Shown here: one piece after another, positions 15,991-46,858 of the stretch
Layout: the number at the start of each line of letters is the position of its first letter
Position numbering within the stretch: the stretch's first letter is position 1
Sequence record: PZ445454.1
Source: a phage
Direction: 5' to 3' (one strand)
Length of the DNA: 64,000 bases
Notes under the pieces: model-generated
Seen by the model: only the letters and a program-made list of their open reading frames with translations
The model's database searches: none
What the model was told of the DNA's origin: nothing
Translations under genes and position numbers: made by a program

Positions 15991-17031
15991 ATGGAGAAGT
16001 ACACATTAACAAAGCTTCCCGATTCAGTTACACATGTCTTTATTGACTCTGACAGCATTGCCTATAAAGGTGCTTGTGTAGTTGAGAAAGCAAAGTATAA
16101 ATACGTTAATAAACTCACAGCAGAAGAATCTGAACCATTTGATAATGCGAAAGATGCTGCAAGATGGTTAGCAGACCAGAGAATCCTTGTGGAAGAGCTT
16201 GGCCTGACATTTGATGAAGATGAATGGGAAAGACAAACTTGGAAAGAAGCTAAGAGTGAAAAAGAAGCTATCATGGCTACTCAACAGGTTCTTCAGGAAT
16301 GGCTTAAGGTTGTTGGTAAAGAAAGAACTTGGGTGGGTTATTTAACAGAGAAAGGTGTGCATAAACATAAAGACATTAAAGGTCTTGAGCACCAATATCA
16401 AGGTAACCGTAAAGATGCTGTCACACCAACACACTTAGTCGCTTGTCGTGAATACCTTTTATCCAGACCAGAGTTCAAGCTCTTAAAGGGAGGCTTCGAA
16501 GCCGATTCAATCGTAATTGCTAAAGCTGAAAAGATGGGTAAGAAGGCTGCTCTTATGAGTATTGACAAAGACCTTCGACAAGCTGAAGGAACTTATTGTA
16601 TTGATATGACTTATGAAAAATCACCACTAATCTTTATTGCTGATAATAATGTTGGTGATATCTGGGATTGTCCTATCAAATCAAAACCAAAAGCTGCAAA
16701 AACAGTTGGTGTAGGTTTTAAATTCTTGTGCTATCAGGCTGTTGCTGGAGATAATGCAGACAACTACTTTGGCCTTAAAGGTGCTGGTAAAGTAGCTGTG
16801 ATGAATGCTTTAGATGGCAAAGAGACATACAAAGAGTGTCTTGATGCTATCTATGAACTCTATGCTAAAAAAGACTCTTACACCTATGTATCATGGGATG
16901 GACAGACAGTTACAAAGACACCGTTAGAGTTAATGGAACAGCATTTCTGGATAGCTTATCAAGAAAGAAATCCAAAAGATAATTTCTCTTTTAAGAAATA
17001 TAATTGGGAGCCACGTATGAATGAAGATTAA
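15991..17031 (+). CDS. 5'-3' exonuclease / flap endonuclease (RNase H-like)
   Basis: 346 aa; N-terminal VFIDSDSIAY and H3TH motif AGDNADNYFGLKGAGKVAV. Confidence 0.75.
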   Translation: MEKYTLTKLPDSVTHVFIDSDSIAYKGACVVEKAKYKYVNKLTAEESEPFDNAKDAARWLADQRILVEELGLTFDEDEWERQTWKEAKSEKEAIMATQQVLQEWLKVVGKERTWVGYLTEKGVHKHKDIKGLEHQYQGNRKDAVTPTHLVACREYLLSRPEFKLLKGGFEADSIVIAKAEKMGKKAALMSIDKDLRQAEGTYCIDMTYEKSPLIFIADNNVGDIWDCPIKSKPKAAKTVGVGFKFLCYQAVAGDNADNYFGLKGAGKVAVMNALDGKETYKECLDAIYELYAKKDSYTYVSWDGQTVTKTPLELMEQHFWIAYQERNPKDNFSFKKYNWEPRMNED

Positions 17032-17518
17032 AGGATTTGGCAATTGCCCCACCTATGGTCATTGGGTATCTTTATGTGGGGAAGTTGACCCCACTAAACA
17101 TTTTGGTTTTGTCTATTTAGTACACTGTAAGAAAACCGGACAATATTATATCGGAAAGAAACAGCTTAATAGTGTGACTAAAAGAAAAGTTGCTGGCAAG
17201 ACTCGGAAGAAGGTAGTCACTAAGGAGAGTGATTGGATGACTTATGAAACTTCTTCTGAGTATATTAAAAAAGATATTGAGAGCTTTGGAAAAGAATTTT
17301 TTGACTTTTACATTATTCAGACCTACTACACGAAAGGTGGCCTAGTTTATGGTGAAGCAAACCTCCAACATAAATTCGATGTAATGACAAAAAGGATTGA
17401 CTCTAAGCTCAGACTCTTCTACAATGCCAATATTGCAGCAATTAAGTTTATCACTAAAGAAACTTATGAAGATGCTGAAAAAAGAATCCATAAGGTAATG
17501 AAAGCAAACTGCGCTTGA
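17021..17518 (+). CDS. hypothetical protein, possible GIY-YIG nuclease fold
   Basis: 165 aa; FVYLVHCKKTGQYYIGKK resembles a GIY-YIG motif; weak. Confidence 0.35.
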   Translation: MKIKGFGNCPTYGHWVSLCGEVDPTKHFGFVYLVHCKKTGQYYIGKKQLNSVTKRKVAGKTRKKVVTKESDWMTYETSSEYIKKDIESFGKEFFDFYIIQTYYTKGGLVYGEANLQHKFDVMTKRIDSKLRLFYNANIAAIKFITKETYEDAEKRIHKVMKANCA

Positions 17519-29141: not shown

Positions 29142-29412
29142 AGAGAAGTGGGAGATTTTACCATTAGTCAGTGAAGGTGGTAATGGTTGTGAAATGTACA
29201 TGATACGTGGTCATGTTCCAGAACCAATTGCGCTTGAGATGGTAAACAACTTTACAGATGGCTCTTACAAAGACTTAGGGGAGCCAACTATAAAGCAGCA
29301 ATGGGTAAAGCCTGTACCAGACAGCACAGGTAACTGTAGTGTACTTTATCACGTTGTAGACCCTGCAAAATGCAAATCTGCAATGGCAGTAACAAACGTA
29401 ACTTTTGATTGA
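29134..29412 (+). CDS. hypothetical protein
   Basis: 92 aa ORF. Confidence 0.45.
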   Translation: MAKEKWEILPLVSEGGNGCEMYMIRGHVPEPIALEMVNNFTDGSYKDLGEPTIKQQWVKPVPDSTGNCSVLYHVVDPAKCKSAMAVTNVTFD

Positions 29413-29423
29413 GAGATAAAACT

Positions 29424-30305
29424 ATGAAAACTGTTATTGAAGCCGTCGTCACCGCACAAGAGAAATTCTTCCACACAGAAAAATTCAATATCATTCAATT
29501 CCCATCTGGAGAAATTGGTGGAAACTTCTCTGAAGATTTTGTTAAGTTTACTGAGCGTAATGCTGGTAAGATTGATAATGTTATAATTACTGTACAGGGA
29601 TATGACAAAGATACACTGTTTGCATTAGCTTTGGCTAAGGATGCCGTTGACAGTCTTGTTCCCCAGAAATCAGCGATGAAAACCATTGTTTTCGGGTTCT
29701 TACCAAATGCTCGATATGACCGCCACATGTTCAAAGGTGATGCAGCAGCACTGAAAGTCTTTGCCAACCTAGTTAATGCAATGGGTTTTGATGCAGTATG
29801 TGCTCTTGACCCTCACAGTAATGTTGCAGAAAACTTATTTAAGTGCTTTCAAAGCATGAAGCAAAAAGATGTGGCAGTACACTTTGCAAGTGACCCACGC
29901 ATTGATTTCTTGGTAGCCCCAGATGCAGGTGCAGCTAAGAAGACTGAAGACACCGCTAAAGAGGTGGATAAACCGTATATCACAATGTCTAAGGTGCGCA
30001 ATCTTAAGACTGGAGAAATTACTGGTATGCGAATCCTTGATGATGTTGATTTGACAGATAAAACTGTCATGATTCTGGATGATATTTGTGATGGAGGCCG
30101 AACCTTCGTAGAGGCAGCGAAACACCTACGCGAAGCAGGTGCAAAACGTGTGGAACTCTATGTAACACATGGAATTTTCTCTAAAGGTGTTGAAAACTTG
30201 CTTGACAACGGAATCGACCATATCTACACTACAAACACTTTAGGTGAAGCTAAAGACCGTGGCTTAACACATTACGGTCAAGTGACTGTAGCAACCATTG
30301 ACTGA
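29424..30305 (+). CDS. ribose-phosphate pyrophosphokinase (PRPP synthetase)-like protein; candidate ADP-ribose pyrophosphokinase of a NAD+ reconstitution pathway
   Basis: PRTase-type motif MILDDICDGGRTF and PRPP-synthetase-like N-terminal half; ORF track start 29409 is non-ATG, ATG at 29424; immediately upstream of the NAMPT-like gene. Confidence 0.7.
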   Translation: MKTVIEAVVTAQEKFFHTEKFNIIQFPSGEIGGNFSEDFVKFTERNAGKIDNVIITVQGYDKDTLFALALAKDAVDSLVPQKSAMKTIVFGFLPNARYDRHMFKGDAAALKVFANLVNAMGFDAVCALDPHSNVAENLFKCFQSMKQKDVAVHFASDPRIDFLVAPDAGAAKKTEDTAKEVDKPYITMSKVRNLKTGEITGMRILDDVDLTDKTVMILDDICDGGRTFVEAAKHLREAGAKRVELYVTHGIFSKGVENLLDNGIDHIYTTNTLGEAKDRGLTHYGQVTVATID

Positions 30306-30313
30306 GATTTTAT

Positions 30314-30336
30314 AGGGGCTTGAAAGCCCCATTTTG
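30314..30336 (+). terminator. hairpin (terminator-like)
   Basis: GGGGCTTGAAAGCCCC followed by ATTTT. Confidence 0.4.
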
Positions 30337-30350
30337 AGAGAGACTAAAAG

Positions 30351-32132
30351 ATGACTAAATCACTTTACGCAGTACCAGCAGGTTTAAATGCAGATGCTTA
30401 CAAATCTGGTCATGTTTACCAGTACCCTAGTGCAACAGAATACTTGATGTTCAACCTGACACCACGTAGTGATAAATGGTTTAACAGCCCCTTAGCAATT
30501 GATGGTGTAGTGGCTTTTGGTATTCAGCGTTTTGTTAAAGATTACTTGATAGACCACTGGAACGCAACTTTCTTTGAGCGTGATAAAAAAGAAGCAATTG
30601 ACGAAATCTTAGAAGTCATGAATGGTGTTCTGGGTAAAGATGCTATCGGTCGAGAGCATTGGGAAGCACTTCACGACTTAGGCTATCTACCAGTTGAAGT
30701 ATATGCTGTAGAAGAAGGTACAGTTGTCCCTATGCGTGTCCCAATGATTGTCTTCCAGAACACTGTTTCAGGCTTCCATTGGGTAGCAGGTTATCTGGAA
30801 GATGCTTTCTCTGCTGAGATTTGGAAGGCTTGTACCATTGCAACTATTGCATTGCACTACAAACGCATCTGTAAGAAGTGGGCTGACCTTACTTGCGACA
30901 ATGACTTACATTTACCTTATCAGTGCCATGACTTTGCTATGCGTGGTATGTCCGGCTTTACTGATGACGCATTTAACGCTGTAGGCCACTTAACCAGCTT
31001 TAAAGGAACTGATAGCTTCCCTGCTGTGTATACGGCTAAACGAATATATGGACAGTCTTACCCAATCTCTGATATTGGTAGTTCTGTACCAGCCACTGAG
31101 CACTCTGTAATGTGTGCAAACATTGCTTGGGAAGGTGGTAATGAGTTGATTGAAGAAGAAAGACGCTTTAAAGGTGAGTTGCAAACCTTCCGTCGTTTCT
31201 TAACAGAAACTTACCCAACTGGTATTGCAAGTATTGTTTCAGATACTTATAACTTCTGGAGAACCGTGTCAGAAATCTTGCCAGCACTTCGTAAAGAAAT
31301 TATGGAACGTGATGGTAAGCTGGTAATTCGCCCTGACTCTGGAGACCCTGTACATATTGTCACAGGTTATAAAGCAATCCACTTAGAGTGTGCTAAGAAG
31401 GCTTATTACGAGCATCTAAGCAAGCTGGAAGCTAGTGACACAATGTTGGATGCTGTTCTGAACATGAAGCTTGAAAACATCAGCTATGGTATTGCTGGAT
31501 GGCTACTATCAGAAGGCTACGAAATGGTTGTTGACAGAGAAGACTTTGAAGTTGCTGATACAGTGATGTTGAAAAATGCTTATATGGTTGGTTCTGCAAA
31601 CGTTGTAACACGTCCTGTAGCTGAGATTGATGGAGCTATTAAGACACTGTACAACATCTTTGGAGGAACTACTAACTCTAAAGGGTTTAAGGTGCTGGAT
31701 GAGCATATCGGCCTTATCTATGGTGACTCTATCACGCTGGAACGTGCAAACGAAATCCTGAAGCGTCTGTATGAAATGGGTTTTGCAAGCTCTAACGTAG
31801 TGTTTGGTGTAGGCTCTTACACTTACCAGTACATGACTCGTGATACCTTTGCATTTGCTGTCAAAGCAACCCTTGCAAGCATTGGTGGTAAAGAGATTAT
31901 GCTTGCAAAAGACCCTAAAACAGATAGTGGTGTTAAGAAGTCTGCCTTTGGTGGTGTATCACCTATGTGGGATGGTGATAAGCTGAAAGCTGTAGATGGC
32001 TATGGATTCCAGAGTTTTGCAGATGTACTTGACCACCCAGCTTGTGCTTTACGTTTAGTCTTTAGTGACTCTGAGCAGTTCGGTTACACAACTCTTGGTG
32101 ATATTCGAAACAATATTGACAAGCAGCTTTAA
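30351..32132 (+). CDS. nicotinamide phosphoribosyltransferase (NAMPT/NadV)-like protein
   Basis: 593 aa; N-terminal DAYKSGH motif and length typical of the NAMPT family. Confidence 0.75.
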   Translation: MTKSLYAVPAGLNADAYKSGHVYQYPSATEYLMFNLTPRSDKWFNSPLAIDGVVAFGIQRFVKDYLIDHWNATFFERDKKEAIDEILEVMNGVLGKDAIGREHWEALHDLGYLPVEVYAVEEGTVVPMRVPMIVFQNTVSGFHWVAGYLEDAFSAEIWKACTIATIALHYKRICKKWADLTCDNDLHLPYQCHDFAMRGMSGFTDDAFNAVGHLTSFKGTDSFPAVYTAKRIYGQSYPISDIGSSVPATEHSVMCANIAWEGGNELIEEERRFKGELQTFRRFLTETYPTGIASIVSDTYNFWRTVSEILPALRKEIMERDGKLVIRPDSGDPVHIVTGYKAIHLECAKKAYYEHLSKLEASDTMLDAVLNMKLENISYGIAGWLLSEGYEMVVDREDFEVADTVMLKNAYMVGSANVVTRPVAEIDGAIKTLYNIFGGTTNSKGFKVLDEHIGLIYGDSITLERANEILKRLYEMGFASSNVVFGVGSYTYQYMTRDTFAFAVKATLASIGGKEIMLAKDPKTDSGVKKSAFGGVSPMWDGDKLKAVDGYGFQSFADVLDHPACALRLVFSDSEQFGYTTLGDIRNNIDKQL

Positions 32133-36705: not shown

Positions 36706-37254
36706 ATGAAGAAGTTGATTCTAGGTTTGTGCTTAATGTTTACAGCACACTTATCTTATGCAGTTGACTGCCCAGAGCTATCAATTAGCCAAAAAGTAAA
36801 CATGTTAAAAGCTTACCAGTATGGTGAGAATAACATGGGTAAAGGTTGGGGTATCACTCTAGCTGCTATAGCCTTACAAGAGTCAGAGTTAGGTCTGAAG
36901 GTAGAGAATAAAAAGACACATGATTATGGTATTTTCCAGAATCACTTGAAGACTGTTGTAAAGCGTAACAAAATCAGTCCTAATGTGGCTAAAAAGAAAC
37001 TCTTAAGAGACTTTGATTATGCTGCGAAGGAAACTCACAAAGAGCTTGAGTTTTGGACAAAGGTGCATGGTCAGCCAAAGTCAAAGAAGACTTTACAAAA
37101 AGTTTTAGCATCATATAATGCTGGGTATTCGTACAGAATCCCTAAAGCTAAGAAATATTCTCAAGATGTCTATAACAACATGAAAGTCATCGCTCAATGT
37201 GAATTTGCAACAAACATTTCTAAGGTAAACCATGAAAAAATTAAGAAAGTCTGA
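36706..37254 (+). CDS. secreted lytic transglycosylase-like protein (SLT domain)
   Basis: 182 aa; signal peptide MKKLILGLCLMFTAHLSYA; SLT-like motifs ES, GIFQ and SYNAG. Confidence 0.55.
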   Translation: MKKLILGLCLMFTAHLSYAVDCPELSISQKVNMLKAYQYGENNMGKGWGITLAAIALQESELGLKVENKKTHDYGIFQNHLKTVVKRNKISPNVAKKKLLRDFDYAAKETHKELEFWTKVHGQPKSKKTLQKVLASYNAGYSYRIPKAKKYSQDVYNNMKVIAQCEFATNISKVNHEKIKKV

Positions 37255-37927
37255 TGAAGTACTGTGTCATGCTTATGACTTACATCCTCATGAGTTAGGT
37301 CTTGATTCCTGTGTATGGACTCCAGAACAGTGTAGGGATTTTGAAGACACCGCAAGAGAAGTTGTATGTTCACTTGAAGAGTTCCACACATCAGAGCCAA
37401 TTGTGAATGTTGTAGATAAAGAGACTGGACAAACTATAGGTGTAAGTCGTGATAGCTTAGTCATAGTCAATAAAGACCTTGTAGAAAAAGGGAATCTTAT
37501 CTTAGCAGATATTGATGGTGTTCTTACAAATTTTAATCACGAAGATTGTTCAACGGAATTGACTGATGGTTCATTTTCACAGTATACTAATCTTCTTGAC
37601 TCTGTAAGAGCAAAACCAACGTATGTTTTCAATATCATTGATGCAATTGCTAATCATGCTGCTGTTGGACTCTTGACAGCAAGAGGTGAATCTCAGAGAA
37701 TACCTACTGAGATGTTTTTAAGGCATAATACAGAGCATGATTACATGCTTTTTATGCGTGGTTTTGGAACTAACTCTATAAGTGCAGAAAGTTTAAAAGT
37801 AAGGATGATTCAGTCTTGCATTCTACCTTACTTTAATATAGTATGTTTTATAGAAGATACAGAGAAGAATGTTCAGAAGGTAAACAGAATCCTTCCACAC
37901 ATTAAAACTATGTTAGTAAAACATTGA
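37232..37927 (+). CDS. hypothetical protein, possible HAD-like phosphatase/nucleotidase
   Basis: 231 aa; LADIDGVLTNF resembles HAD motif I; weak. Confidence 0.35.
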   Translation: MKKLRKSDEVLCHAYDLHPHELGLDSCVWTPEQCRDFEDTAREVVCSLEEFHTSEPIVNVVDKETGQTIGVSRDSLVIVNKDLVEKGNLILADIDGVLTNFNHEDCSTELTDGSFSQYTNLLDSVRAKPTYVFNIIDAIANHAAVGLLTARGESQRIPTEMFLRHNTEHDYMLFMRGFGTNSISAESLKVRMIQSCILPYFNIVCFIEDTEKNVQKVNRILPHIKTMLVKH

Positions 37928-39762: not shown

Positions 39763-39955
39763 CTTCTGCAAAGATTGTGCTATCGAAATGTTCGGACGTG
39801 ATACAGGTGACTTAAAAGGTCTTATCACTGAAGATGACTTTAAGGCTGGCTATGCAATGCCAGTAATCTGTGAAGGTTGTGGATGTATCTGGGTAGACCA
39901 CGAAGGACAGCGTGTAAAACCTTCAGAAGATAAAGAATCTTGGGAGAGATGCTAA
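39677..39955 (+). CDS. hypothetical protein (Cys-rich)
   Basis: 92 aa; CKDC...CEGCGC. Confidence 0.35.
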   Translation: MDSSLNHWKTLKVVVVKASSFKRQLFMADFCKDCAIEMFGRDTGDLKGLITEDDFKAGYAMPVICEGCGCIWVDHEGQRVKPSEDKESWERC

Positions 39956-40741
39956 ATGGGTATTGTAAAAATCATCAATGGGGATATCTTCTCCGCATTT
40001 GATAAAGGTAAGTTTGATATTATTGGTCACGGTTGCAACTGTATGAACTTAATGGGTGCAGGTATCGCTGACAAGATTTCTAAACTTTACCCAAAAGCAT
40101 ATGAGACAGATACAGAAGTTTATCTGTATGCAGGTGGTATAGGCCACAAACCCTGTGAAAATTTACTAGGCAACTTCTCTGTAGCACGTTTAAAACAAGG
40201 CCGTATAGCTAACCTTTACACTCAGCTTAAGACTGGTAAAGATGCCCGATACAGTGCTTTAGAGTCATCTCTGAAACAGCTTAACAGATACTGTGAAGTT
40301 AATCAGTTGAAGAAAGTTGGTTTACCTATGATTGGTGCAGGTATCGGTGGACTTGACCCTCAAGCCGTCACCGTTATCATTAATCAGGTGATGAAGAGCG
40401 TAGATGTCTATCTATATGTCTACGAAGGAGAGATGTACTACAAGTTACGCTCAGGTTGGAAGAACTACTGTGAACCAGAATACTTTGCAGGTGTAGTAGT
40501 GTTCACTGACAATGCAGTTACCCTCTTCAGACGAAGAAAAGGTAAGATACATCAAAGTAACCCTCCGGTTGAAAAGATGTCTCTAAGTAACGCTCTAGTT
40601 ACCCACCTGTCGAAGAGCAATCACAGAATTGCCGTGACGTTTGGTAGTGATGCCGATACATATATCTATGCAAGAACTGATGAGGATATCGAGACAGTTT
40701 TCTCTTCACCAGAAGTTACCTTCTTAGACGCAAAGAACTAA
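39956..40741 (+). CDS. Macro-domain protein (ADP-ribose binding/processing)
   Basis: 261 aa; N-terminal INGDIFSAFDKGKFDIIGHGCNCMNLMGAGIADKI and later GLPMIGAGIGGLDP match Macro-domain signatures. Confidence 0.6.
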   Translation: MGIVKIINGDIFSAFDKGKFDIIGHGCNCMNLMGAGIADKISKLYPKAYETDTEVYLYAGGIGHKPCENLLGNFSVARLKQGRIANLYTQLKTGKDARYSALESSLKQLNRYCEVNQLKKVGLPMIGAGIGGLDPQAVTVIINQVMKSVDVYLYVYEGEMYYKLRSGWKNYCEPEYFAGVVVFTDNAVTLFRRRKGKIHQSNPPVEKMSLSNALVTHLSKSNHRIAVTFGSDADTYIYARTDEDIETVFSSPEVTFLDAKN

Positions 40742-40807
40742 GAAACTCTGTAGAATATTCACAATAGATTAAGCCTTTCTTATCTGGTAAATTTTTCAGG
40801 TAAGGAG

Positions 40808-41010
40808 GGCTTTTTCATTTTAGAATTGTGCAGGTAGAGTTCTGTAGAGAAATCTGTAGAGAGAATTTTGAACTCCAAAGAGAAAATTCATTTTCAAACT
40901 GTGCAGGTAATCTCCAAAGAGCTTTTTCATTTTCAAAACGTGCAGACCCCGCTCAGGTCGGGCAAGAAAAATCATTTTAGAATTGTGCAGGTAGGTGGGT
41001 GCAGGTGGGG
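40808..41010. repeat. four direct repeats of a ~25 nt motif (consensus about TCATTTTMRAAYKGTGCAGGTA); iteron-like
   Basis: Copies at about 40811-40837, 40883-40910, 40922-40948, 40968-40995 read directly; two overlapping ORF-track ORFs here are probably spurious. Confidence 0.7.
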
Positions 41011-41170: not shown

Positions 41171-41199
41171 TTGACTCTTTGAGTATGGTTATCTAATAT
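41171..41199 (+). promoter_or_regulatory. sigma70-like promoter for the first cassette gene
   Basis: TTGACT-N17-TAATAT upstream of 41250. Confidence 0.5.
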
Positions 41200-41249: not shown

Positions 41250-41456
41250 ATGCTGTACAGTCGCGAATTGATGGTTACAACTAACATTAACACAAAGGCA
41301 AAACGTTTTTACATACAAATCTGTGGCGTATGGTCCAGAATATCAGAAGCTGACTATTGCAACTATGTAGAAACGGCTATAAACTCTAATTGCTACCTTA
41401 CAAGAAATACAAGAAAGTACATAAGACAGACAGCAATTTACTACTACGATAAATAA
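41250..41456 (+). CDS. small hypothetical protein (cassette gene 1)
   Basis: 68 aa; preceded by conserved leader CTAAACTGGAGAATCTAAAA-ATG. Confidence 0.55.
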   Translation: MLYSRELMVTTNINTKAKRFYIQICGVWSRISEADYCNYVETAINSNCYLTRNTRKYIRQTAIYYYDK

Positions 41457-41543
41457 AGTACTTTACAAGGGGCTTATAGTTCGATAAAGTAAGCCCCAGA
41501 TAAAGAGCTTTGCTAACTAACCTTAAACTAGGAGAATCTGAAA
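41456..41543 (+). repeat. conserved intergenic regulatory cassette, type A
   Basis: TTTACA-like box, hairpin GGGGCTTATAGTTCGATAAAGTAAGCCCC, leader CTAAACTAGGAGAATCTGAAA-ATG. Confidence 0.7.
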
Positions 41544-41924
41544 ATGGCATATCGTGCACCTAAATTCATCAACAAAGACAACTTTCGCAACGCACTGGAG
41601 AAGTCACTTGATGAAAAATTTAACGGTAAATTGATTATTGTTCACGCATTCAATTTTAAGTATGATATTAATGGGAATAAAATCAACCATTACACGGCAA
41701 CCATGATAGATGGTACACTTTCAAGTGAAAAAGCCGTACTGAATGCACTTGCTGGACGCGGTAAAAACCTGATAAAATGTGATAAGCGACGTTATCAGGG
41801 TGGCGCATATGGTTACGATGATGCTGTTTACCATCTTGAAAACATGGGCTATCAAGTAGAAAAAGCTGGAGTATCACAAATTATCGGGAGTGATGGTTAT
41901 GTGACAATTTTCAAAATTAACTAA
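41544..41924 (+). CDS. hypothetical protein (cassette gene 2)
   Basis: 126 aa; conserved leader directly upstream. Confidence 0.6.
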   Translation: MAYRAPKFINKDNFRNALEKSLDEKFNGKLIIVHAFNFKYDINGNKINHYTATMIDGTLSSEKAVLNALAGRGKNLIKCDKRRYQGGAYGYDDAVYHLENMGYQVEKAGVSQIIGSDGYVTIFKIN

Positions 41925-42014
41925 TAAAGTACTTTACAGGGGGCTTATAGTTCGATAAAGTAAGCCCCAGATAAAGAGCTTTACCACTAAATCCTAAATT
42001 GGAGAATCTGAAAA
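41925..42014 (+). repeat. conserved intergenic regulatory cassette, type A
   Basis: Near-identical to 41456-41543. Confidence 0.7.
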
Positions 42015-42272
42015 ATGGCTATTATTAAAAACGTTGTAATTTCTGCAAAAACTCGTGATGACGCTCGCGTTATGGCTAAAAAGTTATGTGGGAAAGTGGT
42101 TGACAACGGGAAACAATCTGCTGTAAGATGGGGTGTAAAGGTTGATAAACATTTAACCTTAAAACGTAGTTCAAACAACCTTTTTAAAGGTGTAAAATCA
42201 CTCGGTAAAGTGAACGTTTTTACCAAAAAAGGTTATAAAATGCACTTATCATTAACTGGCAATTTAATCTGA
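42015..42272 (+). CDS. small hypothetical protein (cassette gene 3)
   Basis: 85 aa; starts MAII, conserved leader. Confidence 0.55.
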   Translation: MAIIKNVVISAKTRDDARVMAKKLCGKVVDNGKQSAVRWGVKVDKHLTLKRSSNNLFKGVKSLGKVNVFTKKGYKMHLSLTGNLI

Positions 42273-42360
42273 TAAAGTACTTTACAAGGGGCTTAAAAGT
42301 TGATATCTTAAGCCCCAGATAAAGAGCTTTACCACTAAATCCTAAACTGGAGAATCTAAA
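42273..42360 (+). repeat. conserved intergenic regulatory cassette, type A variant
   Basis: GGGGCTTAAAAGTTGATATCTTAAGCCCC hairpin plus conserved leader. Confidence 0.7.
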
Positions 42361-42873
42361 ATGAAAACTGTAGACGCTACCTTTGAAGTTGTAAAAGAAA
42401 AATTCACCATTATTTATGAAGCTGTCAATTGCTTTGAAGCAAGCCATAATCTTGATAATTGGAAGTTTACAGATGACCATCAAGGCGGTGTGACGATTAA
42501 AAATCCTAACTGTCAGCGTAATGAATTTAAATATGCAATCCCTTTGCATTACAGCCTTAAGCAGCTTTCAAGTGACTATGCAAAACAAGGCCGTGAGAAT
42601 CCATCGAAAGAGGCTTACACGAGCTTACAGAAAGAACTAGAAAGAGATTTAGAGGCTTCAGAGTACAACCTTGCCGCGAAAGTTGTGGATGCAAACGGTA
42701 ACACGGTTTTAGAAAGTTTTTATCTTGGTTATGCTTTCGATTGGTGCTATCGTGACGGCGATGATTTAGAGGGTAGACTAAAAGAAGAGGTGAACAATTC
42801 AGACGCAGAAACTGAAGTATTAGAACGTTTGGAATCGTTGAAAGACTCAGTGATGAATATCTTTAAGAACTAA
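42361..42873 (+). CDS. hypothetical acidic protein (cassette gene 4)
   Basis: 170 aa. Confidence 0.6.
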   Translation: MKTVDATFEVVKEKFTIIYEAVNCFEASHNLDNWKFTDDHQGGVTIKNPNCQRNEFKYAIPLHYSLKQLSSDYAKQGRENPSKEAYTSLQKELERDLEASEYNLAAKVVDANGNTVLESFYLGYAFDWCYRDGDDLEGRLKEEVNNSDAETEVLERLESLKDSVMNIFKN

Positions 42874-42965
42874 ATAGATTTCTTTACACGGGGCTAACAA
42901 GCTGATATGGTAGCCCCAGATAAAGAGATTTATCAAATAAAGCCCTTAAACTAGGAGATTCTAAA
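42874..42965 (+). repeat. conserved intergenic regulatory cassette, type A variant
   Basis: GGGGCTAACAAGCTGATATGGTAGCCCC hairpin plus conserved leader. Confidence 0.65.
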
Positions 42966-43262
42966 ATGAAATTATCGAATAAAGTTCGTGAAAATCTAAG
43001 CAAGTTACTCAACAAAATTGATTTTATCGAGACATCAAGAAATAATCATGATGTTATGGAATGGTTGCACGGCAAAATAAAAGGCCGTCGCGTAGTGATT
43101 TGCTTATGGAATAGTTGCAGGGAATATAAAAAACCTGTATTGCAAGTAAATATCTATGATGATACTTTTAAAAGTCCAGTAAAATCTAAAAGTGACTTAC
43201 TAGATTCTTATGAGATAACTGTAAATGGCAAAGTATCACGTAAAGAGGAAACACCATGTTAA
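42966..43262 (+). CDS. hypothetical protein (cassette gene 5)
   Basis: 98 aa. Confidence 0.55.
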   Translation: MKLSNKVRENLSKLLNKIDFIETSRNNHDVMEWLHGKIKGRRVVICLWNSCREYKKPVLQVNIYDDTFKSPVKSKSDLLDSYEITVNGKVSRKEETPC

Positions 43263-43588
43263 TGACTGGTATCACTGCAATCATTGCCATTTTCGCGCTA
43301 TATAAGGCATATAAAGCCTATAATCTAGCAAATAAGGCAATCACACAGCAGGTTAGCAATAACCTTGTAGAAAGCTTTCTAGGGCGCCTCAGTGATGAGC
43401 AAATAAAGCGGCTAGAGATGAGCTTCAGATATAAAGCGAAAACCTATCAGATAAGTGACATCTTCAAAGATGATTTTCAGTTAGTCGATGATTATAATTC
43501 ACTGATAAATGCTTTAAATATCAGTGATTTGAAAGACTATTACGCTGTAATTGTTCAAGAATTGAGCAAACGAAAACAAAATGTTTGA
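43256..43588 (+). CDS. hypothetical protein with N-terminal TM helix
   Basis: 110 aa; translationally coupled to the previous gene (no cassette upstream). Confidence 0.5.
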   Translation: MLMTGITAIIAIFALYKAYKAYNLANKAITQQVSNNLVESFLGRLSDEQIKRLEMSFRYKAKTYQISDIFKDDFQLVDDYNSLINALNISDLKDYYAVIVQELSKRKQNV

Positions 43589-43677
43589 CACTGGTTTTCA
43601 GATAGATTAAATTACACATCAACGGGGTGGGAATGACCTTCCCCACTAAGTAAAGTCCTAAACTGGAGATTCTGAAA
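43585..43677 (+). repeat. conserved intergenic regulatory cassette, type B (includes promoter TTGACA-N17-TAAATT)
   Basis: TTGACACTGGTTTTCAGATAGATTAAATT, hairpin GGGAATGACCTTCCC, leader CTAAACTGGAGATTCTGAAA-ATG. Confidence 0.7.
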
Positions 43678-43950
43678 ATGTATACTACTAACAACGGTCG
43701 TACTTTAAACGTAACCATACGCCACTACATCAACGGGGTGATGCACTTTGAAGACTTACAAGCTGAGCAACATATCTTAGATTGGCAAGTTGCAGGACTC
43801 CAAAAAACTGCTACAGGATACGGGAAAAAGATTCCAACCAGTTGGAAAGTATACTACGAAGGCCGTTTGCGCAGAATTTATCAAGATGTATATAGCAATA
43901 GCGCAACAAGTTACATCATGGTAAAAGGTAAAAAGCTGCATTTAGTGTAA
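43678..43950 (+). CDS. small hypothetical protein (cassette gene 6)
   Basis: 90 aa. Confidence 0.55.
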   Translation: MYTTNNGRTLNVTIRHYINGVMHFEDLQAEQHILDWQVAGLQKTATGYGKKIPTSWKVYYEGRLRRIYQDVYSNSATSYIMVKGKKLHLV

Positions 43951-44035
43951 AGTACTTTACAAGGGGCTTATAGTTCGATAAAGTAAGCCCCAGATAAAGA
44001 GCTTTACCACTAAATCCTAAATTGGAGATTCAAAA
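43951..44035 (+). repeat. conserved intergenic regulatory cassette, type A
   Basis: Near-identical to 41925-42014. Confidence 0.7.
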
Positions 44036-44440
44036 ATGGCTATTAATAACCGTGAATTATCAATCTTAAAAGCACGTTTGACCGTTAACCGGATTAATGT
44101 TATTACATCATCAGCACCGGACGAAACATTGCACAACATTATTGGGAAGATTCAAAGTGTTATCTTAGACGTTGAAAACGTAAAAAACTCATTGGCTGAC
44201 GTTGCAGCAGGTATCACGCTAGACGGTGCACAATATGAAATGACCGACATGTTAGGCAAATCTAAGGTAATGAATAAAGAGCTTGATTTGAAAATGTTTC
44301 GGTTTGCTGTTAAAGTGTGGCTATCTGTCGAATATGACGCTAACTTTGCAATCGCTGACTTTTTCGCCACTTGGTTACAACGTAATTTGACAAATCATGA
44401 TTTTCGTGGTATCTGCGATGCAATTTATGCAGAACTCTAA
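44036..44440 (+). CDS. hypothetical protein (cassette gene 7)
   Basis: 134 aa; starts MAIN. Confidence 0.6.
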   Translation: MAINNRELSILKARLTVNRINVITSSAPDETLHNIIGKIQSVILDVENVKNSLADVAAGITLDGAQYEMTDMLGKSKVMNKELDLKMFRFAVKVWLSVEYDANFAIADFFATWLQRNLTNHDFRGICDAIYAEL

Positions 44441-44540
44441 AAATTTTGTTGACACTGGTTTTCAGATAGATTAAATTACACATCAACGGGGCGGGAATGA
44501 CCTTCCCCACTAAATAAAGTCCTAAACTGGAGATTCAAAA
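44441..44540 (+). repeat. conserved intergenic regulatory cassette, type B (promoter TTGACA-N17-TAAATT)
   Basis: Near-identical to 43585-43677. Confidence 0.7.
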
Positions 44541-44738
44541 ATGGCTATTATTAATGGTTTAACCATTGAAACTACACACATCAAAGACATTAAAGTTGGT
44601 GATGTAGTTCTTTTTCACGGCGTAGAAAAAACCGTCACGGCGAAAGATATTACAGAGGACTCCTTCATGGGCCGGTCACTCTTCGGTGATTCTTATTGCT
44701 TAGGTTATCGCGCAGTTTTAAAAGTTATCAAAAAATAA
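44541..44738 (+). CDS. small hypothetical protein (cassette gene 8)
   Basis: 65 aa; starts MAII. Confidence 0.5.
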   Translation: MAIINGLTIETTHIKDIKVGDVVLFHGVEKTVTAKDITEDSFMGRSLFGDSYCLGYRAVLKVIKK

Positions 44739-44830
44739 CCGATAAAGTACTCTACAAGGGGCTTAAAAGTTGATATCTTAAGCCCCAGATAAAGAGCTTT
44801 ACCACTAAATCCTAAACTGGAGATTCAAAA
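44739..44830 (+). repeat. conserved intergenic regulatory cassette, type A variant
   Basis: Near-identical to 42273-42360. Confidence 0.7.
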
Positions 44831-45373
44831 ATGAAATGCTTTCACGGTACTACTCAAGAAAACTTCCTCAATCTGATTAATAACGGTGACAAGCCATCAG
44901 GTGCATGGAATTGTTCGGATATGGACGGCAATTTTTACGTGTACCCAGAAAATAAAATCTATGGCGACGATGAGGAAGAGATAATCTCTGAAGGCATCCA
45001 GCAAGCGTTAGGTAATGCCACTATTACGGCTGCTTTCCAGATGAAAACCCAAAATATTGTTATCTTAGAACTTGATATCCCAGAGGATGACCTAAATGAT
45101 GATTATTCTTGTGATAATATGTCTGGCGTAGCAAGTTTTACAGAATACTTCGATTTAAATTGGATTAAAAAGGTTTACGTAACCGAGTTTAATGCGATGT
45201 TTTCGCCTTTTTGTCTTCCTTCATTGGATAACCCAAATTTAAACTATCTTGAGGAGTCTCTGGAGCTTCTTGCTAAAAGTGTTCAACAGTCGGACAGTAT
45301 TCAGGTTTTTTGTGACATCATGGATACACTGACAGGAAACATCACAGAAGAGGATTTAAAGAGCTTTTTCTGA
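44831..45373 (+). CDS. hypothetical strongly acidic protein (cassette gene 9)
   Basis: 180 aa, Asp/Glu-rich. Confidence 0.6.
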   Translation: MKCFHGTTQENFLNLINNGDKPSGAWNCSDMDGNFYVYPENKIYGDDEEEIISEGIQQALGNATITAAFQMKTQNIVILELDIPEDDLNDDYSCDNMSGVASFTEYFDLNWIKKVYVTEFNAMFSPFCLPSLDNPNLNYLEESLELLAKSVQQSDSIQVFCDIMDTLTGNITEEDLKSFF

Positions 45374-45414
45374 AAACCTATACAATCACCTTATAAACAC
45401 TGATTAGCCCCTCA

Positions 45415-45437
45415 CAGGGGCTTTTAAGAGGCTTAAA
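45415..45437 (+). terminator. hairpin plus T-run
   Basis: AGCCCC-TCACA-GGGGCT followed by TTTT. Confidence 0.45.
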
Positions 45438-45439
45438 TC

Positions 45440-45673
45440 ATGCTTACAACCGTTTATCTTATCCTTTCTATTTGTAACGGTCATTCATGCGATTTTAAAG
45501 GGCTTGAAGAGTTTACAGGAAGTAAAGAAAATGCTATTCAAGTTTGCCAGATAGCAAGGCAAGACTACCCCGCCAGTGATGATATACAATGTTACTTTAA
45601 GACAGAAGATGATGATGGAATCTATTTCGACAGCGTTGACGGTCAATATGAAATTATCATTGAAAAAGACTAG
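45440..45673 (+). CDS. small hypothetical protein
   Basis: 77 aa; hydrophobic N-terminus; no conserved cassette leader. Confidence 0.45.
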   Translation: MLTTVYLILSICNGHSCDFKGLEEFTGSKENAIQVCQIARQDYPASDDIQCYFKTEDDDGIYFDSVDGQYEIIIEKD

Positions 45674-45762
45674 ACAAGCCTGATAAAAGTCTGTAAATTG
45701 TCAATCAACGGGGCGGGAATGACCTTCCCCACTAAATAAAGTCCTAAACTGGAGATTCAAAA
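45674..45762 (+). repeat. conserved intergenic regulatory cassette, type B
   Basis: CAACGGGGCGGGAATGACCTTCCCCACTAAATAAAGTCCTAAACTGGAGATTCAAAA-ATG. Confidence 0.7.
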
Positions 45763-46104
45763 ATGGCTTATGTAACCGTAATTACCGATAAAGCTGGCTC
45801 ATCTTGGTCAACTCAAGTAAGCGATAATCTATCACCTATGCAGTGCCTAAAATACTTTGAGCAATGGAATAAAGGTGAGGATACAAGCCCCTTTCAAGTG
45901 ATGCAGATTATACATGTAGACAATGAAGGGAAGAAAACGACTTTAAACAGCGAGTTCTACGCAACCCGATTTGAAACGAGATGTAAAACGATGAAGTTAT
46001 TACGTGAATCCGGTTATGCCCATATCGCCGCGTTAATCTGGGATGACCTGCTAAAAAACCAACGTATGAACTATGTAAAACCTGAAAAAATATTCATCAG
46101 TTAA
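45763..46104 (+). CDS. hypothetical protein (cassette gene 10)
   Basis: 113 aa. Confidence 0.55.
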   Translation: MAYVTVITDKAGSSWSTQVSDNLSPMQCLKYFEQWNKGEDTSPFQVMQIIHVDNEGKKTTLNSEFYATRFETRCKTMKLLRESGYAHIAALIWDDLLKNQRMNYVKPEKIFIS

Positions 46105-46239
46105 TCAATAACTTACAAAAAACTTTTAAAAAAGTGTTGACAATACCCCTTGACATTGGTAACTTTGTTCGAGGGGGTTTATCTAAAAGGGATTAACTTA
46201 AAAGATTCTTTATAGATAAACTTAAAAAATTGCTTGCAA

Positions 46240-46327
46240 TCAGATATCAAAACAAGTAAATTACTAATCAACGGTGAGGGAATGAACTTCCTCACTAAAT
46301 AAAGTCCTTAAACTAGGAGATTCAAAA
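46240..46327 (+). repeat. conserved intergenic regulatory cassette, type B variant
   Basis: CAACGGTGAGGGAATGAACTTCCTCACTAAATAAAGTCCTTAAACTAGGAGATTCAAAA-ATG. Confidence 0.65.
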
Positions 46328-46858
46328 ATGAACAAGTTCAAAGCTATCAACTACATCCGTTCAAGTAGTGTCATGTCAAAGCCTGTTAAAGATACCTATG
46401 AATTTCGTTGCAATGGTGTACACTTTGCAACCATTACCAAATCAGAAAACGGGGCTTATTACGTTCATCGTCGTAATGTTGCAACAGTTGTAGTCTCTCA
46501 CTTTATGCAAGCTGTAGCAGAATTATTACCGTTATTCTTAGGGATTTACTTGGATGAGTGTAAAAACGTTCACAACCACGTTAAAAGCCTTTTAAACAGT
46601 TATAAAATGGCTTATGAACGTTCTATCAAGTCCTTAAACAAGTTCTATAAAGCCCCTGTAAATACTGTTTCAATGGCCTACGCTGCAAATGGTGAAAGAG
46701 TAAACCTATCCGATGTGGAAGATATCGAGCTTTACAACCATCGGCCTAACGGTTACTCTCAGACTCTAGGTGAAGGTTTAACTTTCAATATCAAGAACTT
46801 AGAAAAAACTTTAAAAGATATTGAAAAAGATATTGACGAGACAATCAAAAATCTGTAA
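46328..46858 (+). CDS. hypothetical protein (cassette gene 11)
   Basis: 176 aa. Confidence 0.6.
   Translation: MNKFKAINYIRSSSVMSKPVKDTYEFRCNGVHFATITKSENGAYYVHRRNVATVVVSHFMQAVAELLPLFLGIYLDECKNVHNHVKSLLNSYKMAYERSIKSLNKFYKAPVNTVSMAYAANGERVNLSDVEDIELYNHRPNGYSQTLGEGLTFNIKNLEKTLKDIEKDIDETIKNL

What the first reader, a model, noticed from the sequence alone, without database searches (positions are those of the whole stretch)
39956..40741. Macro-domain protein: possible ADP-ribosylation reversal
The N-terminal ~160 aa match Macro-domain signatures for ADP-ribose binding or hydrolysis, followed by a ~100 aa extension. In a phage that also carries a candidate NAD+ reconstitution module, a Macro protein could remove ADP-ribose marks laid down by host defences such as DarT-like toxins, or process ADPR-derived signals.
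Basis: partly seen in the sequence, partly recalled or inferred. Interest (0 to 1): 0.6.

Follow-up and report, generated by a model that had tools for sequence, protein, structure and literature searches.

The report
Two-domain phage macrodomain ADP-ribose hydrolase
This gene of a Felix O1-like phage encodes a real ADP-ribose-handling (macro) enzyme domain, related to two recently described phage anti-immunity enzymes, joined to a small extra domain of unknown role found only in this phage group; it is a known kind of gene in a slightly new form.

Summary
The ORF at 39956-40741 (+, 261 aa) is real, and its first ~157 aa are a confident macrodomain: Pfam 32 bits against a cut-off of 22, AF2 pLDDT 90, TM 0.80-0.85 to TARG1 and DarG. 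The window is a Felixounavirus, where relatives annotate this gene as 'putative phosphatase'.

The domain belongs to the TARG1/DarG/Poa1p class but carries an invariant Gln (Q90) where TARG1 and DarG have their catalytic Lys. SCO6735, a proven thymidine-ADPr DNA hydrolase, has the same substitution.

Two phage homologues have experimental support:
- T4 Tk.4 ('AdfM', 34% identity) is needed to resist DarTG2.
- Vibrio phage Gary 'Adpp' (27%) dephosphorylates ADPR-1''-phosphate so that NARP1 can rebuild NAD+.

Those two are 39% identical to each other. Phylogeny does not tie the Felix clade to either. The phage's own NARP1 (Adps and Namat) lies 7.8 kb upstream.

Residues ~170-255 form a beta-rich domain with no Pfam, PDB or viral structural relative. 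It is found only fused to this macrodomain, in Ounavirinae-like phages.

My best guess is an AdfM-like remover of DarT2 marks from phage DNA (~0.4). The close rival is an Adpp-like ADPR-1''P phosphatase (~0.3). Overall this is a new variant of a known kind, of moderate interest.

The parts
39956..40741 (+). Complete ORF, 261 aa including stop: macrodomain plus an orphan C-terminal domain
   Evidence: ORF list. PHROG_335 'phosphatase' at E 1e-112 over aa 1-260. 93-97% nt identity to Felixounavirus genomes, where it is annotated 'putative phosphatase'.
39942..39949 (+). Shine-Dalgarno GGGAGAGA. The upstream ORF's TAA stop (39953-39955) abuts the ATG, suggesting translational coupling
   Evidence: Sequence read.
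39956..40426 (+). Macrodomain, aa 1-157, of the TARG1/DarG/Poa1p (ALC1-like) class
   Evidence: Pfam PF01661 at 32.3 bits. Profile versus PDB at 4e-17 to 1e-13. Foldseek TM 0.74-0.85.
40028..40069 (+). Motif 1, H25-G-C-N28-C-M-N-L-M-G34-A-G36-I-A38: the ADP-ribose-binding loop with the conserved Asn. H25 aligns with Poa1p H23
   Evidence: Invariant columns in A1/A2. N28 aligns with PhiKZ AdfM N23, whose mutation lowers activity. Poa1p alignment via Tk.4.
40136..40156 (+). Clade-specific 7-residue insertion, aa 61-67 (G-I-G-H-K-P-C), absent from Tk.4, Adpp and bacterial homologues
   Evidence: Column-by-column comparison.
40211..40225 (+). Motif 2, N86-L-Y-T-Q90. Q90 occupies the position of the catalytic Lys of TARG1 (K84), DarG (K80) and PhiKZ AdfM
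   Evidence: Alignments to TARG1. hhalign to PhiKZ gp104 'FPTK'. Q invariant in 80/80 bacterial homologues and in all phage homologues examined. SCO6735 Q85 is equivalent and essential.
40325..40357 (+). Motif 3, P124-M-I-G-A-G-I-G-G-L-D134: the diphosphate-binding loop. It has no Asp at the TARG1 D125 position. The Trp of the family-wide 'AGGDW' is lost in this clade
40463..40720 (+). C-terminal orphan domain, aa ~170-255: six beta-strands plus a terminal helix
40771..40822 (+). Terminator-like hairpin (17 bp stem) plus T-tract that closes the transcription unit
   Evidence: z = -3.2 for the 259-nt downstream region.
29409..32132 (+). Context: the NARP1 NAD+ reconstitution genes, Adps 29409-30305 and Namat 30351-32132. 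They would consume the free ADP-ribose that the macrodomain releases
   Evidence: Pfam and NCBIfam hits. NARP1 was defined on Bas63 genes 79-80. Synteny is kept in Kolesnikvirus and in two distant metagenomic relatives.

Best explanation
The protein is a phage counter-defence ADP-ribosyl hydrolase. The N-terminal macrodomain binds an ADP-ribose adduct through the H-G-C-N-C...G-A-G-I-A and I-G-A-G-I-G-G loops. It hydrolyses the bond at ribose C1'' by a Gln-dependent, water-mediated mechanism of the SCO6735 type, not by the lysine mechanism of DarG and TARG1. The product is free ADP-ribose. The substrate I commit to is ADP-ribose attached to thymidine in single-stranded phage DNA by DarT2 toxins. 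On this reading the protein is the Ounavirinae counterpart of T4 Tk.4/AdfM and keeps phage DNA replicable in DarTG2 hosts. The C-terminal beta-rich domain does not contribute to catalysis. It most likely acts as a targeting or partner-binding module, for a host toxin or a phage replication protein. The released ADP-ribose can be recycled to NAD+ by the phage's own NARP1. What is shown: the fold, the class, the motif conservation and the homology. What is inferred: the catalytic role of Q90, the substrate, and any role of the C-domain.
For: Fold and class are established. Q90 sits at the catalytic position in three independent alignments. It is invariant in 80/80 bacterial homologues and in every phage homologue examined. 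SCO6735 carries Gln at that position; Q85A abolishes its dT-ADPr DNA hydrolase activity, and the wild-type protein protects against DarT. T4 tk.4 was the single hit in a transposon screen on DarTG2, and its knockout sensitises T4. The Tequatrovirus Tk.4 orthologue is 34% identical to this protein over 163 columns (E 1e-24, 83 bits) and shares HGCNC, NLYTQ and PxIGxGIxGG. That is a better match than to the Adpp phosphatase, at 27-29% and 53-56 bits. Like Tk.4, this protein has Thr before the Gln, whereas Gary and Ceto Adpp have Gly, and it lacks their 7-residue insertion after the Gln. The gene is not in the NARP1 operon. A second domain after the macrodomain echoes DarG's layout. Bas63 gene 95 ('putative phosphatase') is dispensable on lab hosts, as expected for an accessory anti-defence gene.
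Against: No biochemical or genetic data exist for this protein or its clade. The T4 evidence is genetic only. T4 Tk.4 and Gary Adpp are 39% identical to each other, so sequence does not separate the two activities, and the family may be promiscuous. The two-domain clade has no stable sister group: Tk.4-clade members appear in 5 of 49 bootstrap trees, the same as a NARP1-linked homologue. The C-domain is unrelated to the DarG C-terminal domain. Its net charge ranges from -5 to +4 across homologues, so it is not an obvious DNA binder. The clade has altered the loop next to the diphosphate site, with AGGDW replaced by GGLD, so its specificity may have shifted.
Confidence: 0.4

Rival explanations
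1. Adpp-like ADPR-1''-phosphate phosphatase acting in trans with the phage's NARP1. RES-domain defence proteins (aRES) split NAD+ into nicotinamide and ADPR-1''P, which Adps cannot use. The macrodomain would remove the 1''-phosphate and so extend NARP1 to 'NARP1-AP'. It could also salvage ADPR-1''P arising from breakdown of ADPR-PP or ADPR-cyclic-phosphate.
For: Purified Vibrio phage Gary Adpp, a Poa1p-like macro protein, converts ADPR-1P to ADPR and is needed with Adps and Namat to overcome aRES. Its sequence, and that of the near-identical Ceto gp176, aligns with this protein at 27-29% identity with the same H-x-C-N-C, N-x-Y-x-Q and IGxGxxGG motifs. This phage group is where NARP1 was discovered. 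The macro gene and Namat stay syntenic in Felixounavirus, Kolesnikvirus and two distant relatives. NARP1-adjacent homologues at 34-39% identity are scattered over the family tree, so the phosphatase role seems available to many lineages. aRES occurs in E. coli, Klebsiella and Enterobacter. The existing 'phosphatase' annotation derives from Poa1p.
Against: The gene lies 7.8 kb and about 15 ORFs downstream of Namat, outside the two-gene window that defines NARP1-AP. No Escherichia, Salmonella or Erwinia phage appears in that study's table of NARP1-associated macro proteins. It is less similar to Adpp than to Tk.4. A small-molecule phosphatase has no evident need for an extra domain. Synteny across Ounavirinae is genome-wide and so is weak evidence of functional coupling.
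Confidence: 0.3
2. Reversal of another macromolecular ADP-ribosylation: RNA or protein marks laid down by host toxins such as CmdT-type mRNA ADP-ribosyltransferases, or phosphate-end ADP-ribosylation of nucleic acids. The C-domain would then supply recognition of that target.
For: Enzymes of the TARG1 class act on Glu/Asp-linked protein ADPr and on phosphate-linked DNA/RNA ADPr. The clade-specific insertion, the altered loop and the added domain are compatible with a shifted macromolecular specificity. RNA-targeting ADP-ribosyltransferase defences against coliphages exist.
Against: No homologue has been linked to these substrates. [quoted passage not shown] No hydrolase reversing CmdT marks is reported in the paper read.
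Confidence: 0.12
3. A non-catalytic ADP-ribose binder or sponge, or a degrader of ADPR-derived immune signals such as Thoeris cyclic ADPR isomers.
For: Macrodomains can act as readers, and loss of the class's catalytic Lys and Asp could at first sight suggest inactivation. Phage macro domains have been proposed on comparative grounds to target soluble ADPr signals.
Against: The Gln replacing the Lys is itself catalytic in SCO6735. It is invariant across hundreds of homologues together with H25, N28, N86 and Y88, which is the pattern of an active enzyme. Homologues with the same residues are enzymatically active (Adpp). No experimental link to Thoeris signals was found for this family.
Confidence: 0.06

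Closest known systems
T4 Tk.4 = AdfM (anti-DarT factor Macrodomain; HIDEN-SEQ preprint 10.1101/2025.11.20.689424)
   Same: Same macrodomain family: 34% identity, E 1e-24. It shares HGCNC, NLYTQ and PxIGxGIxGG, including the Gln at the catalytic-Lys position. Both are dispensable early-region genes of lytic coliphages.
   Different: Tk.4 is a single ~155-160 aa domain. This protein adds a ~100 aa orphan C-domain and a 7-residue insertion, and has lost the 'GGDW' Trp. It does not group specifically with the Tk.4 clade. The T4 phenotype is genetic only, and nothing has been tested here.
Adpp, the ADPR-1''P phosphatase of NARP1-AP (Vibrio phage Gary gp137 and Ceto gp176; bioRxiv 10.64898/2026.01.28.702374)
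   Same: Poa1p-like macrodomain with the same motif set, in a phage that encodes NARP1.
   Different: Only 27-29% identical. Adpp sits between Adps and Namat, whereas this gene is 7.8 kb away. Adpp has Gly before the Gln and a 7-residue insertion after it. Adpp has no C-terminal domain.
Streptomyces coelicolor SCO6735 (PDB 5E3B)
   Same: A standalone ALC1-like macrodomain with Gln instead of the catalytic Lys and with 'PRIGCGLAGG' lacking the TARG1 Asp. The family profile matches it at 3e-15. It hydrolyses dT-ADPr on DNA and protects from DarT.
   Different: It is a bacterial, DNA-damage-induced, single-domain protein. The equivalence of Q90 to Q85 was obtained transitively, through TARG1 K84, not from a direct alignment.
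DarG antitoxin macrodomain (T. aquaticus, M. tuberculosis) and PhiKZ gp104 AdfM
   Same: Same fold and class (TM 0.77-0.80, profile E 5e-16). The conserved Asn and both Gly-rich loops are present. DarG also has a two-domain layout with an N-terminal macrodomain.
   Different: The catalytic Lys ('PTK') is replaced by Gln. The NCBIfam DarG score is 48 against a cut-off of 250, and only the macro part matches. The C-domain is unrelated. There is no DarT partner gene.
Yeast Poa1p (ADP-ribose 1''-phosphate phosphatase, PDB 6LFQ)
   Same: The 'H-x-C-N-C ... G-x-G-I-A' N-terminal motif, including the His that depositors mutated (H23A). Profile E 4e-15, TM 0.74-0.76.
   Different: Poa1p S30 and F152 correspond to L32 and G131 here. 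Poa1p has Ser rather than Gln at the Q90 position; that last point is from my memory of the sequence and was not checked with a tool.

Membership tests
Macro domain superfamily (Pfam PF01661) | Sequence score above the Pfam gathering threshold | tested here: met
   32.3 bits against 22, aa 25-141.
Macro domain superfamily (Pfam PF01661) | Three-layer alpha/beta/alpha macro fold superposable on solved macrodomains | tested here: met
   AF2 pLDDT 90.4. Foldseek probability 1.00 and target-normalised TM 0.69-0.85 to about 50 solved macrodomains.
Macro domain superfamily (Pfam PF01661) | ADP-ribose-binding loops: Asn followed by G-x-G, and a second G-x-G loop | tested here: met
   N28...G34-A-G36 and G127-A-G129 are invariant in A1/A2 and in 80/80 bacterial homologues.
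TARG1/DarG lysine-type hydrolases (ALC1-like class) | Closest solved relatives belong to this class rather than to the MacroD, PARG or macroH2A types | tested here: met
   Profile E-values of 4e-17 to 1e-13 for TARG1, DarG, SCO6735 and Poa1p, against 0.47 and weaker for Af1521 (MacroD-type); PARG does not appear among the hits.
TARG1/DarG lysine-type hydrolases (ALC1-like class) | Catalytic Lys (TARG1 K84, DarG K80) | tested here: not met
   The aligned residue is Q90, and it is invariant in the family.
TARG1/DarG lysine-type hydrolases (ALC1-like class) | TARG1 catalytic Asp125 | tested here: not met
   The aligned residue is G131.
DarG antitoxin (NCBIfam NF048014) | Equivalog score at or above the cut-off, including the C-terminal DarT-binding domain | tested here: not met
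   48 bits against 250. Only model positions 4-154 of 338 match.
DarG antitoxin (NCBIfam NF048014) | Encoded next to a DarT toxin gene | tested here: not met
   The neighbours are small phage ORFs, and annotated relatives show no DarT-like product.
Gln-type dT-ADPr DNA hydrolase (SCO6735-like) | Gln at the catalytic-Lys position and a loop IGxGxxGG without Asp | tested here: met
   Q90 is placed via TARG1 K84 and the PhiKZ Lys. SCO6735 Q85 is stated to be equivalent to K84/K80. 'PRIGCGLAGG' compares with 'PMIGAGIGG'.
Gln-type dT-ADPr DNA hydrolase (SCO6735-like) | Hydrolysis of thymidine-linked ADP-ribose on ssDNA | not testable with these tools
   Requires an enzyme assay.
T4 Tk.4 / AdfM | Significant full-domain homology with shared active-site motifs | tested here: met
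   34% identity, E 1e-24. Motifs shared.
T4 Tk.4 / AdfM | Membership of the Tk.4 clade (orthology) | tested here: inconclusive
   The NJ tree is star-like. The two-domain clade is monophyletic in 49/60 bootstraps but has no stable sister, and Tk.4-clade taxa appear as sister in 5 of 49.
T4 Tk.4 / AdfM | Required for plating on DarTG2 hosts | not testable with these tools
   Needs phage genetics. DarTG was not in the PhageMaP Bas63 panel.
Adpp of NARP1-AP | Poa1p-like macro protein in a phage that encodes Adps and Namat | tested here: met
Adpp of NARP1-AP | Encoded within two genes of Adps/Namat (the study's operational definition) | tested here: not met
   The gene starts 7.8 kb after the end of Namat, with about 15 ORFs between them.
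Adpp of NARP1-AP | ADPR-1''P to ADPR phosphatase activity | not testable with these tools
   Requires LC-MS with purified ADPR-1''P.

The most novel reading that the evidence does not exclude
The Ounavirinae protein is a two-pronged anti-defence factor. The Gln-type macrodomain erases the product of a host NAD+-consuming toxin, either dT-ADPr on DNA or ADPR-1''P. The fast-evolving orphan C-terminal domain directly binds and blocks that toxin (DarT2 or aRES), or docks the enzyme onto NARP1 or the replisome. Erasure, inhibition and NAD+ recycling would then be coupled in one phage. This would be a convergent, structurally unrelated re-invention of DarG's 'hydrolase plus toxin-binding domain' logic, using a new fold.
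Probability: 0.15. Interest if true: 0.65.

Novelty: new variant of a known kind. Interest (0 to 1): 0.42.

Why it matters
Within about a year, two studies assigned different anti-immunity jobs to near-identical phage macrodomains: DNA de-ADP-ribosylation against DarTG2, and ADPR-1''P dephosphorylation against aRES. The Felix O1 group is an ideal place to find out whether one enzyme does both. It carries the founding NARP1 system, a single macro gene located away from that operon, and a genetically tractable member in Bas63, where gene 95 is already known to be dispensable. It would also test whether the Gln-for-Lys active site seen in SCO6735 is the general mechanism of this very large family. 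That family includes thousands of phage genes (2796 records in one phage collection) and hundreds of standalone bacterial genes. The orphan C-terminal domain is a small, confidently folded module with no known relatives. Its partner, if it has one, would show how the enzyme is targeted. Practically, Felixounaviruses are used for Salmonella and E. coli biocontrol, so knowing which host defences they can neutralise bears on host-range prediction.

Tried and rejected
1. A DarG/TARG1 lysine mechanism is rejected. Q90 and G131 occupy the catalytic positions.

2. Membership as a DarG equivalog is rejected: 48 bits against a cut-off of 250.

3. The C-domain is not a known domain.
- Pfam gives nothing below E 0.1.
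- BFVD returns only the SUSP2 orthologue.
- The afdb50 library was not available.

4. The C-domain does not occur elsewhere. An exhaustive hmmsearch of 1.84 billion representatives found only macro fusions or fragments of them. The few repeat-protein hits look spurious, for example a beta-propeller-like protein.

5. A Rosetta-stone link to the T4 neighbours Vs or Tk.3 is rejected, with hhalign probability 0.1%.

6. The C-domain is not supported as a conserved basic DNA-binding module. Its net charge ranges from -5 to +4 across homologues.

7. Gene context of the bacterial homologues gave no clue to function. The top 80 of 479 homologues were examined; those with a callable gene are mostly ~151-aa standalone genes with no recurrent neighbour and no recurrent partner gene of the kind a DarT toxin would be.

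8. Phylogeny does not decide between AdfM-like and Adpp-like. It is unresolved, and the first bootstrap attempt timed out.

9. A search for residues that separate NARP1-adjacent homologues from Tk.4-clade homologues found only a weak tendency. The residue before the Gln is Thr in all Tk.4-clade and Felix-clade proteins, and Gly, Ala or Ser in 6 of 9 NARP1-linked ones.

10. There is no second macro gene in the window.

11. A guessed Bas63 accession turned out to be Bas51. Bas63 gene 95 was identified through the PhageMaP supplement instead.

12. A search for Felix-type phages in the aRES study's tables found none.
Full report
**Observation**

The window is a Felix O1-like myovirus (Ounavirinae, Felixounavirus). 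The 3 kb around the finding is 93-97% identical to Escherichia and Salmonella phages such as warpig, nataliec and LinBro.

An ATG ORF of 261 aa runs 39956-40741 on the + strand. It has a GGGAGAGA ribosome-binding site, and its start abuts the stop codon of the upstream ORF. A 17-bp hairpin with a T-tract follows at 40771-40822. The gene therefore closes a long rightward transcription unit that also holds the NAD+ genes, rIIA/rIIB, a HAD/PNKP-like gene and the spanin.

Relatives annotate the gene as 'putative phosphatase', and occasionally as 'O-acetyl-ADP-ribose deacetylase' or 'macro domain protein'.

**The macrodomain is real**

- Pfam Macro scores 32.3 bits against a cut-off of 22.
- PHROG_335 matches at 1e-112.
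- A profile of 31 homologues hits TARG1 (4e-17), M. tuberculosis DarG (5e-16), SCO6735 (3e-15), Poa1p (4e-15) and T. aquaticus DarG (1e-13). The MacroD-type protein Af1521 scores about 0.5, and PARG does not appear among the hits.
- The AlphaFold2 model is confident, with pLDDT 90.4 and pTM 0.89.
- Its first ~157 residues superpose on TARG1 (TM 0.81-0.85), DarG (0.77-0.80) and Poa1p (0.74-0.76).

**Active site**

Three alignments place the invariant Gln90 of the motif N-L-Y-T-Q at the position of the catalytic lysine of TARG1 (K84), DarG (K80) and PhiKZ AdfM ('FPTK'). They are phmmer and hmmsearch against TARG1 and hhalign against PhiKZ gp104. TARG1 Asp125 corresponds to Gly131. The protein therefore cannot use the lysine mechanism.

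This is not a sign of decay. Q90, N86, Y88, P124, G127 and G129 are invariant in 80 of 80 bacterial homologues that were retrieved with a pattern from a different part of the protein, and in every phage homologue examined.

The literature supplies the precedent. SCO6735 is an ALC1-like macrodomain with Gln85 at exactly this position. Q85A abolishes its activity, the enzyme removes thymidine-linked ADP-ribose from DNA, and it protects cells from DarT (PMC9411070). SCO6735 also shares the loop 'PRIGCGLAGG'. The equivalence of Q90 and Q85 is transitive, through TARG1 K84, because I could not obtain a direct alignment.

**Experimentally anchored phage relatives**

1. T4 Tk.4.
- The T4-like homologue lies between vs and tk.3, which is the position of tk.4.
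- It is 34% identical to this protein (E 1e-24) and has the same motifs.
- The HIDEN-SEQ preprint reports tk.4 as the only T4 gene depleted on a DarTG2 host. A clean knockout became DarTG2-sensitive, and the gene was named adfM.

2. PhiKZ gp104.
- A Cell Reports paper also uses the name AdfM for PhiKZ gp104, which removes DarT2 marks from DNA in vitro.
- That protein keeps the DarG lysine and is only distantly related to this one, at hhalign E 2e-9.

3. Adpp.
- A 2026 preprint shows that RES-domain 'aRES' defence converts NAD+ to nicotinamide plus ADPR-1''-phosphate, which NARP1 cannot use.
- About 15% of NARP1 operons carry a Poa1p-like macro gene, Adpp.
- Purified Adpp from Vibrio phage Gary dephosphorylates ADPR-1''P to ADPR, and it is required with Adps and Namat to beat aRES.
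- Gary Adpp and its near-identical Ceto gp176, which sits between Adps and Namat, are 27-29% identical to this protein. They carry H-Q-C-N-C, N-V-Y-G-Q and IGCGLAGGDW.

Tk.4 and Gary Adpp are 39% identical to each other. The two published functions therefore sit inside one family and cannot be separated by sequence.

**Genomic logic**

NARP1 was discovered in the Felixounavirus Bas63 as genes 79-80. The window's counterparts are 29409-30305, with PRPP-synthetase-like Pfam and TIGR hits, and 30351-32132, with NAMPT/NAPRTase hits.

The macro gene starts 7.8 kb downstream of Namat. That places it outside the 'within two genes' definition of NARP1-AP. No Escherichia, Salmonella or Erwinia phage is listed in that study's table.

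The order Namat - rIIA - rIIB - ... - SLT - HAD/PNKP - ... - macro is kept in three further lineages: Kolesnikvirus, and two metagenomic relatives whose macro proteins are only 32-36% identical to this one. Genome-wide synteny in this subfamily is high, so this is only weak evidence of coupling.

The window has a single macro gene.

**Family breadth and phylogeny**

- tblastn finds macro homologues in 2796 phage records, but full-length two-domain matches in only about 257.
- One scan of species-representative genomes found 479 bacterial homologues. Of the 80 examined, most are ~151-aa standalone genes, with no recurrent neighbour and no recurrent partner gene.
- In IMG/VR, homologues at 34-39% identity that sit beside Adps or Namat are scattered over the tree.
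- The two-domain proteins form one clade in 49 of 60 bootstraps, with no stable sister group. Tk.4-clade taxa and a NARP1-linked taxon each appear as sister in 5 of 49 trees.

Clade-specific features of the macrodomain are a 7-residue insertion (aa 61-67, G-I-G-H-K-P-C) and 'GGLD' in place of the otherwise invariant 'AGGDW' after the diphosphate loop.

**The C-terminal domain**

Residues ~170-255 fold into six beta-strands and a terminal helix. The domain reaches pLDDT 81 when modelled alone and 84-93 in the full-length model.

- It has no Pfam match.
- In BFVD it matches only the SUSP2 orthologue.
- An exhaustive profile search of 1.84 billion representative proteins found it only fused to this macrodomain, or as fragments of such proteins.
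- It is unrelated to the DarG C-terminal domain and to the T4 neighbours Vs and Tk.3.
- Its net charge varies from -5 to +4 among homologues, so a conserved nucleic-acid-binding role is not supported.
- It diverges about twice as fast as the macrodomain: 42-51% against 75-77% identity to the Suspvirus- and Mooglevirus-like group, and 17-23% against roughly 40-52% to distant homologues.

The high pTM of the full model suggests a fixed packing against the macrodomain. I could not read the coordinates to locate the interface.

**Mechanism and ranking**

With high confidence (about 0.85) this is an active, Gln-type macrodomain hydrolase used by the phage against NAD+-consuming host defence. It releases free ADP-ribose, which the phage's NARP1 can turn back into NAD+.

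For the substrate I commit, at about 0.4, to DarT2-made thymidine-ADPr on phage ssDNA, the AdfM-like reading. The reasons are:
- similarity to Tk.4 is higher than to Adpp (83 against 53-56 bits);
- the Y-T-Q motif is shared with Tk.4, and the Adpp insertion is absent;
- the Gln-type enzyme SCO6735 has proven DNA activity;
- the gene lies outside the NARP1 operon;
- the two-domain layout recalls DarG.

The Adpp-like ADPR-1''P phosphatase reading is close behind, at about 0.3, and the two are not mutually exclusive. Other macromolecular ADPr substrates (about 0.12) and a non-catalytic binder or signal degrader (about 0.06) are less likely.

PhageMaP data show that Bas63 gene 95 ('putative phosphatase') is dispensable on laboratory E. 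coli and in the defence backgrounds visible. Its betaML values are +0.6 to +1.1, whereas essential genes score negative. This fits an accessory counter-defence gene. That panel contained neither DarTG nor aRES. That gene 95 is the orthologue of this ORF is inferred from its annotation and position, not from an alignment.

**Novelty and verdict**

The gene is present and annotated in hundreds of sequenced phages, and its macrodomain family has just been functionally characterised in other phages. The core of the finding is therefore a known kind.

What appears undescribed is the Ounavirinae-specific architecture: the Gln-type macrodomain with an altered loop and an insertion, fused to an orphan beta-rich domain. 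Whether this single gene serves DarTG2 evasion, NARP1 feeding or both is also open.

I rate it a new variant of a known kind, with interest 0.42. The decisive experiments are simple and are listed separately.

Noticed in passing
window 40806-40990: There are four copies of a 28-34 nt unit (consensus ...TTTTTCATTTT[AC][GA]AA[TC][TG]GTGCAG), spaced 73, 39 and 45 nt. They lie in the ~800-nt non-coding stretch just after the macro gene's terminator hairpin and upstream of a promoter-like site at 41171-41199. This could be a regulatory or protein-binding array.
   Followed up: no
window 41450-46930: Almost every small gene downstream is preceded by a repeated ~93-96 nt cassette. Each cassette has a GC-rich hairpin (GGGGCTTA...TAAGCCCC, or GGGGTGGGAATGACCTTCCCCAC), a conserved leader and the ribosome-binding site ACTGGAGA. 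Two cassette families occur, with 4-5 copies each at 69-97% identity. This looks like a modular terminator/processing-site-plus-leader unit for a set of accessory genes.
   Followed up: partly
window 29409-32132: The NARP1 genes Adps and Namat are directly adjacent here. Phage LinBro has an HNH endonuclease inserted between them, and one distant relative has an HNH gene just after Namat.
   Followed up: partly
window 37232-37927: This 231-aa ORF is annotated 'polynucleotide kinase' in relatives. It has no Pfam or NCBIfam hit here, and only weak or faint HAD_PNKP hits in distant homologues. No RNA ligase is annotated in the related genome LinBro, so a classical tRNA-repair role is doubtful.
   Followed up: partly
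window 58577-63556: A cluster of 25 tRNA genes lies on the + strand, including two tRNA-Met, three tRNA-Leu and two tRNA-Arg(tct).
   Followed up: no
window 17021-17518: This 165-aa ORF corresponds to a LinBro gene annotated 'NAD synthetase', next to an exonuclease and a MazG-like pyrophosphatase. It is too short for a canonical NAD synthetase. It could be another NAD-related accessory gene.
   Followed up: no
Bas63 genome (literature), gene 107: The PhageMaP preprint notes that Bas63 gp107 has 'slight' structural similarity to the NAD-binding domain of RNA 2'-phosphotransferase (Tpt1/KptA) and matters on E. coli S17-1. Such an enzyme would generate ADPR-1''-2''-cyclic phosphate, a precursor of the Poa1p-type substrate. 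Its counterpart in this window, probably in the 44-47 kb accessory-gene block, was not identified.
   Followed up: no
L002:2498-2974 versus Vibrio phage Gary Adpp (sequence from the preprint's Table S1): T4-type Tk.4/AdfM (anti-DarTG2) and Adpp (ADPR-1''P phosphatase) are 39% identical (E 1e-27) and share all active-site motifs. The two published functions may be two faces of one promiscuous enzyme family.
   Followed up: partly
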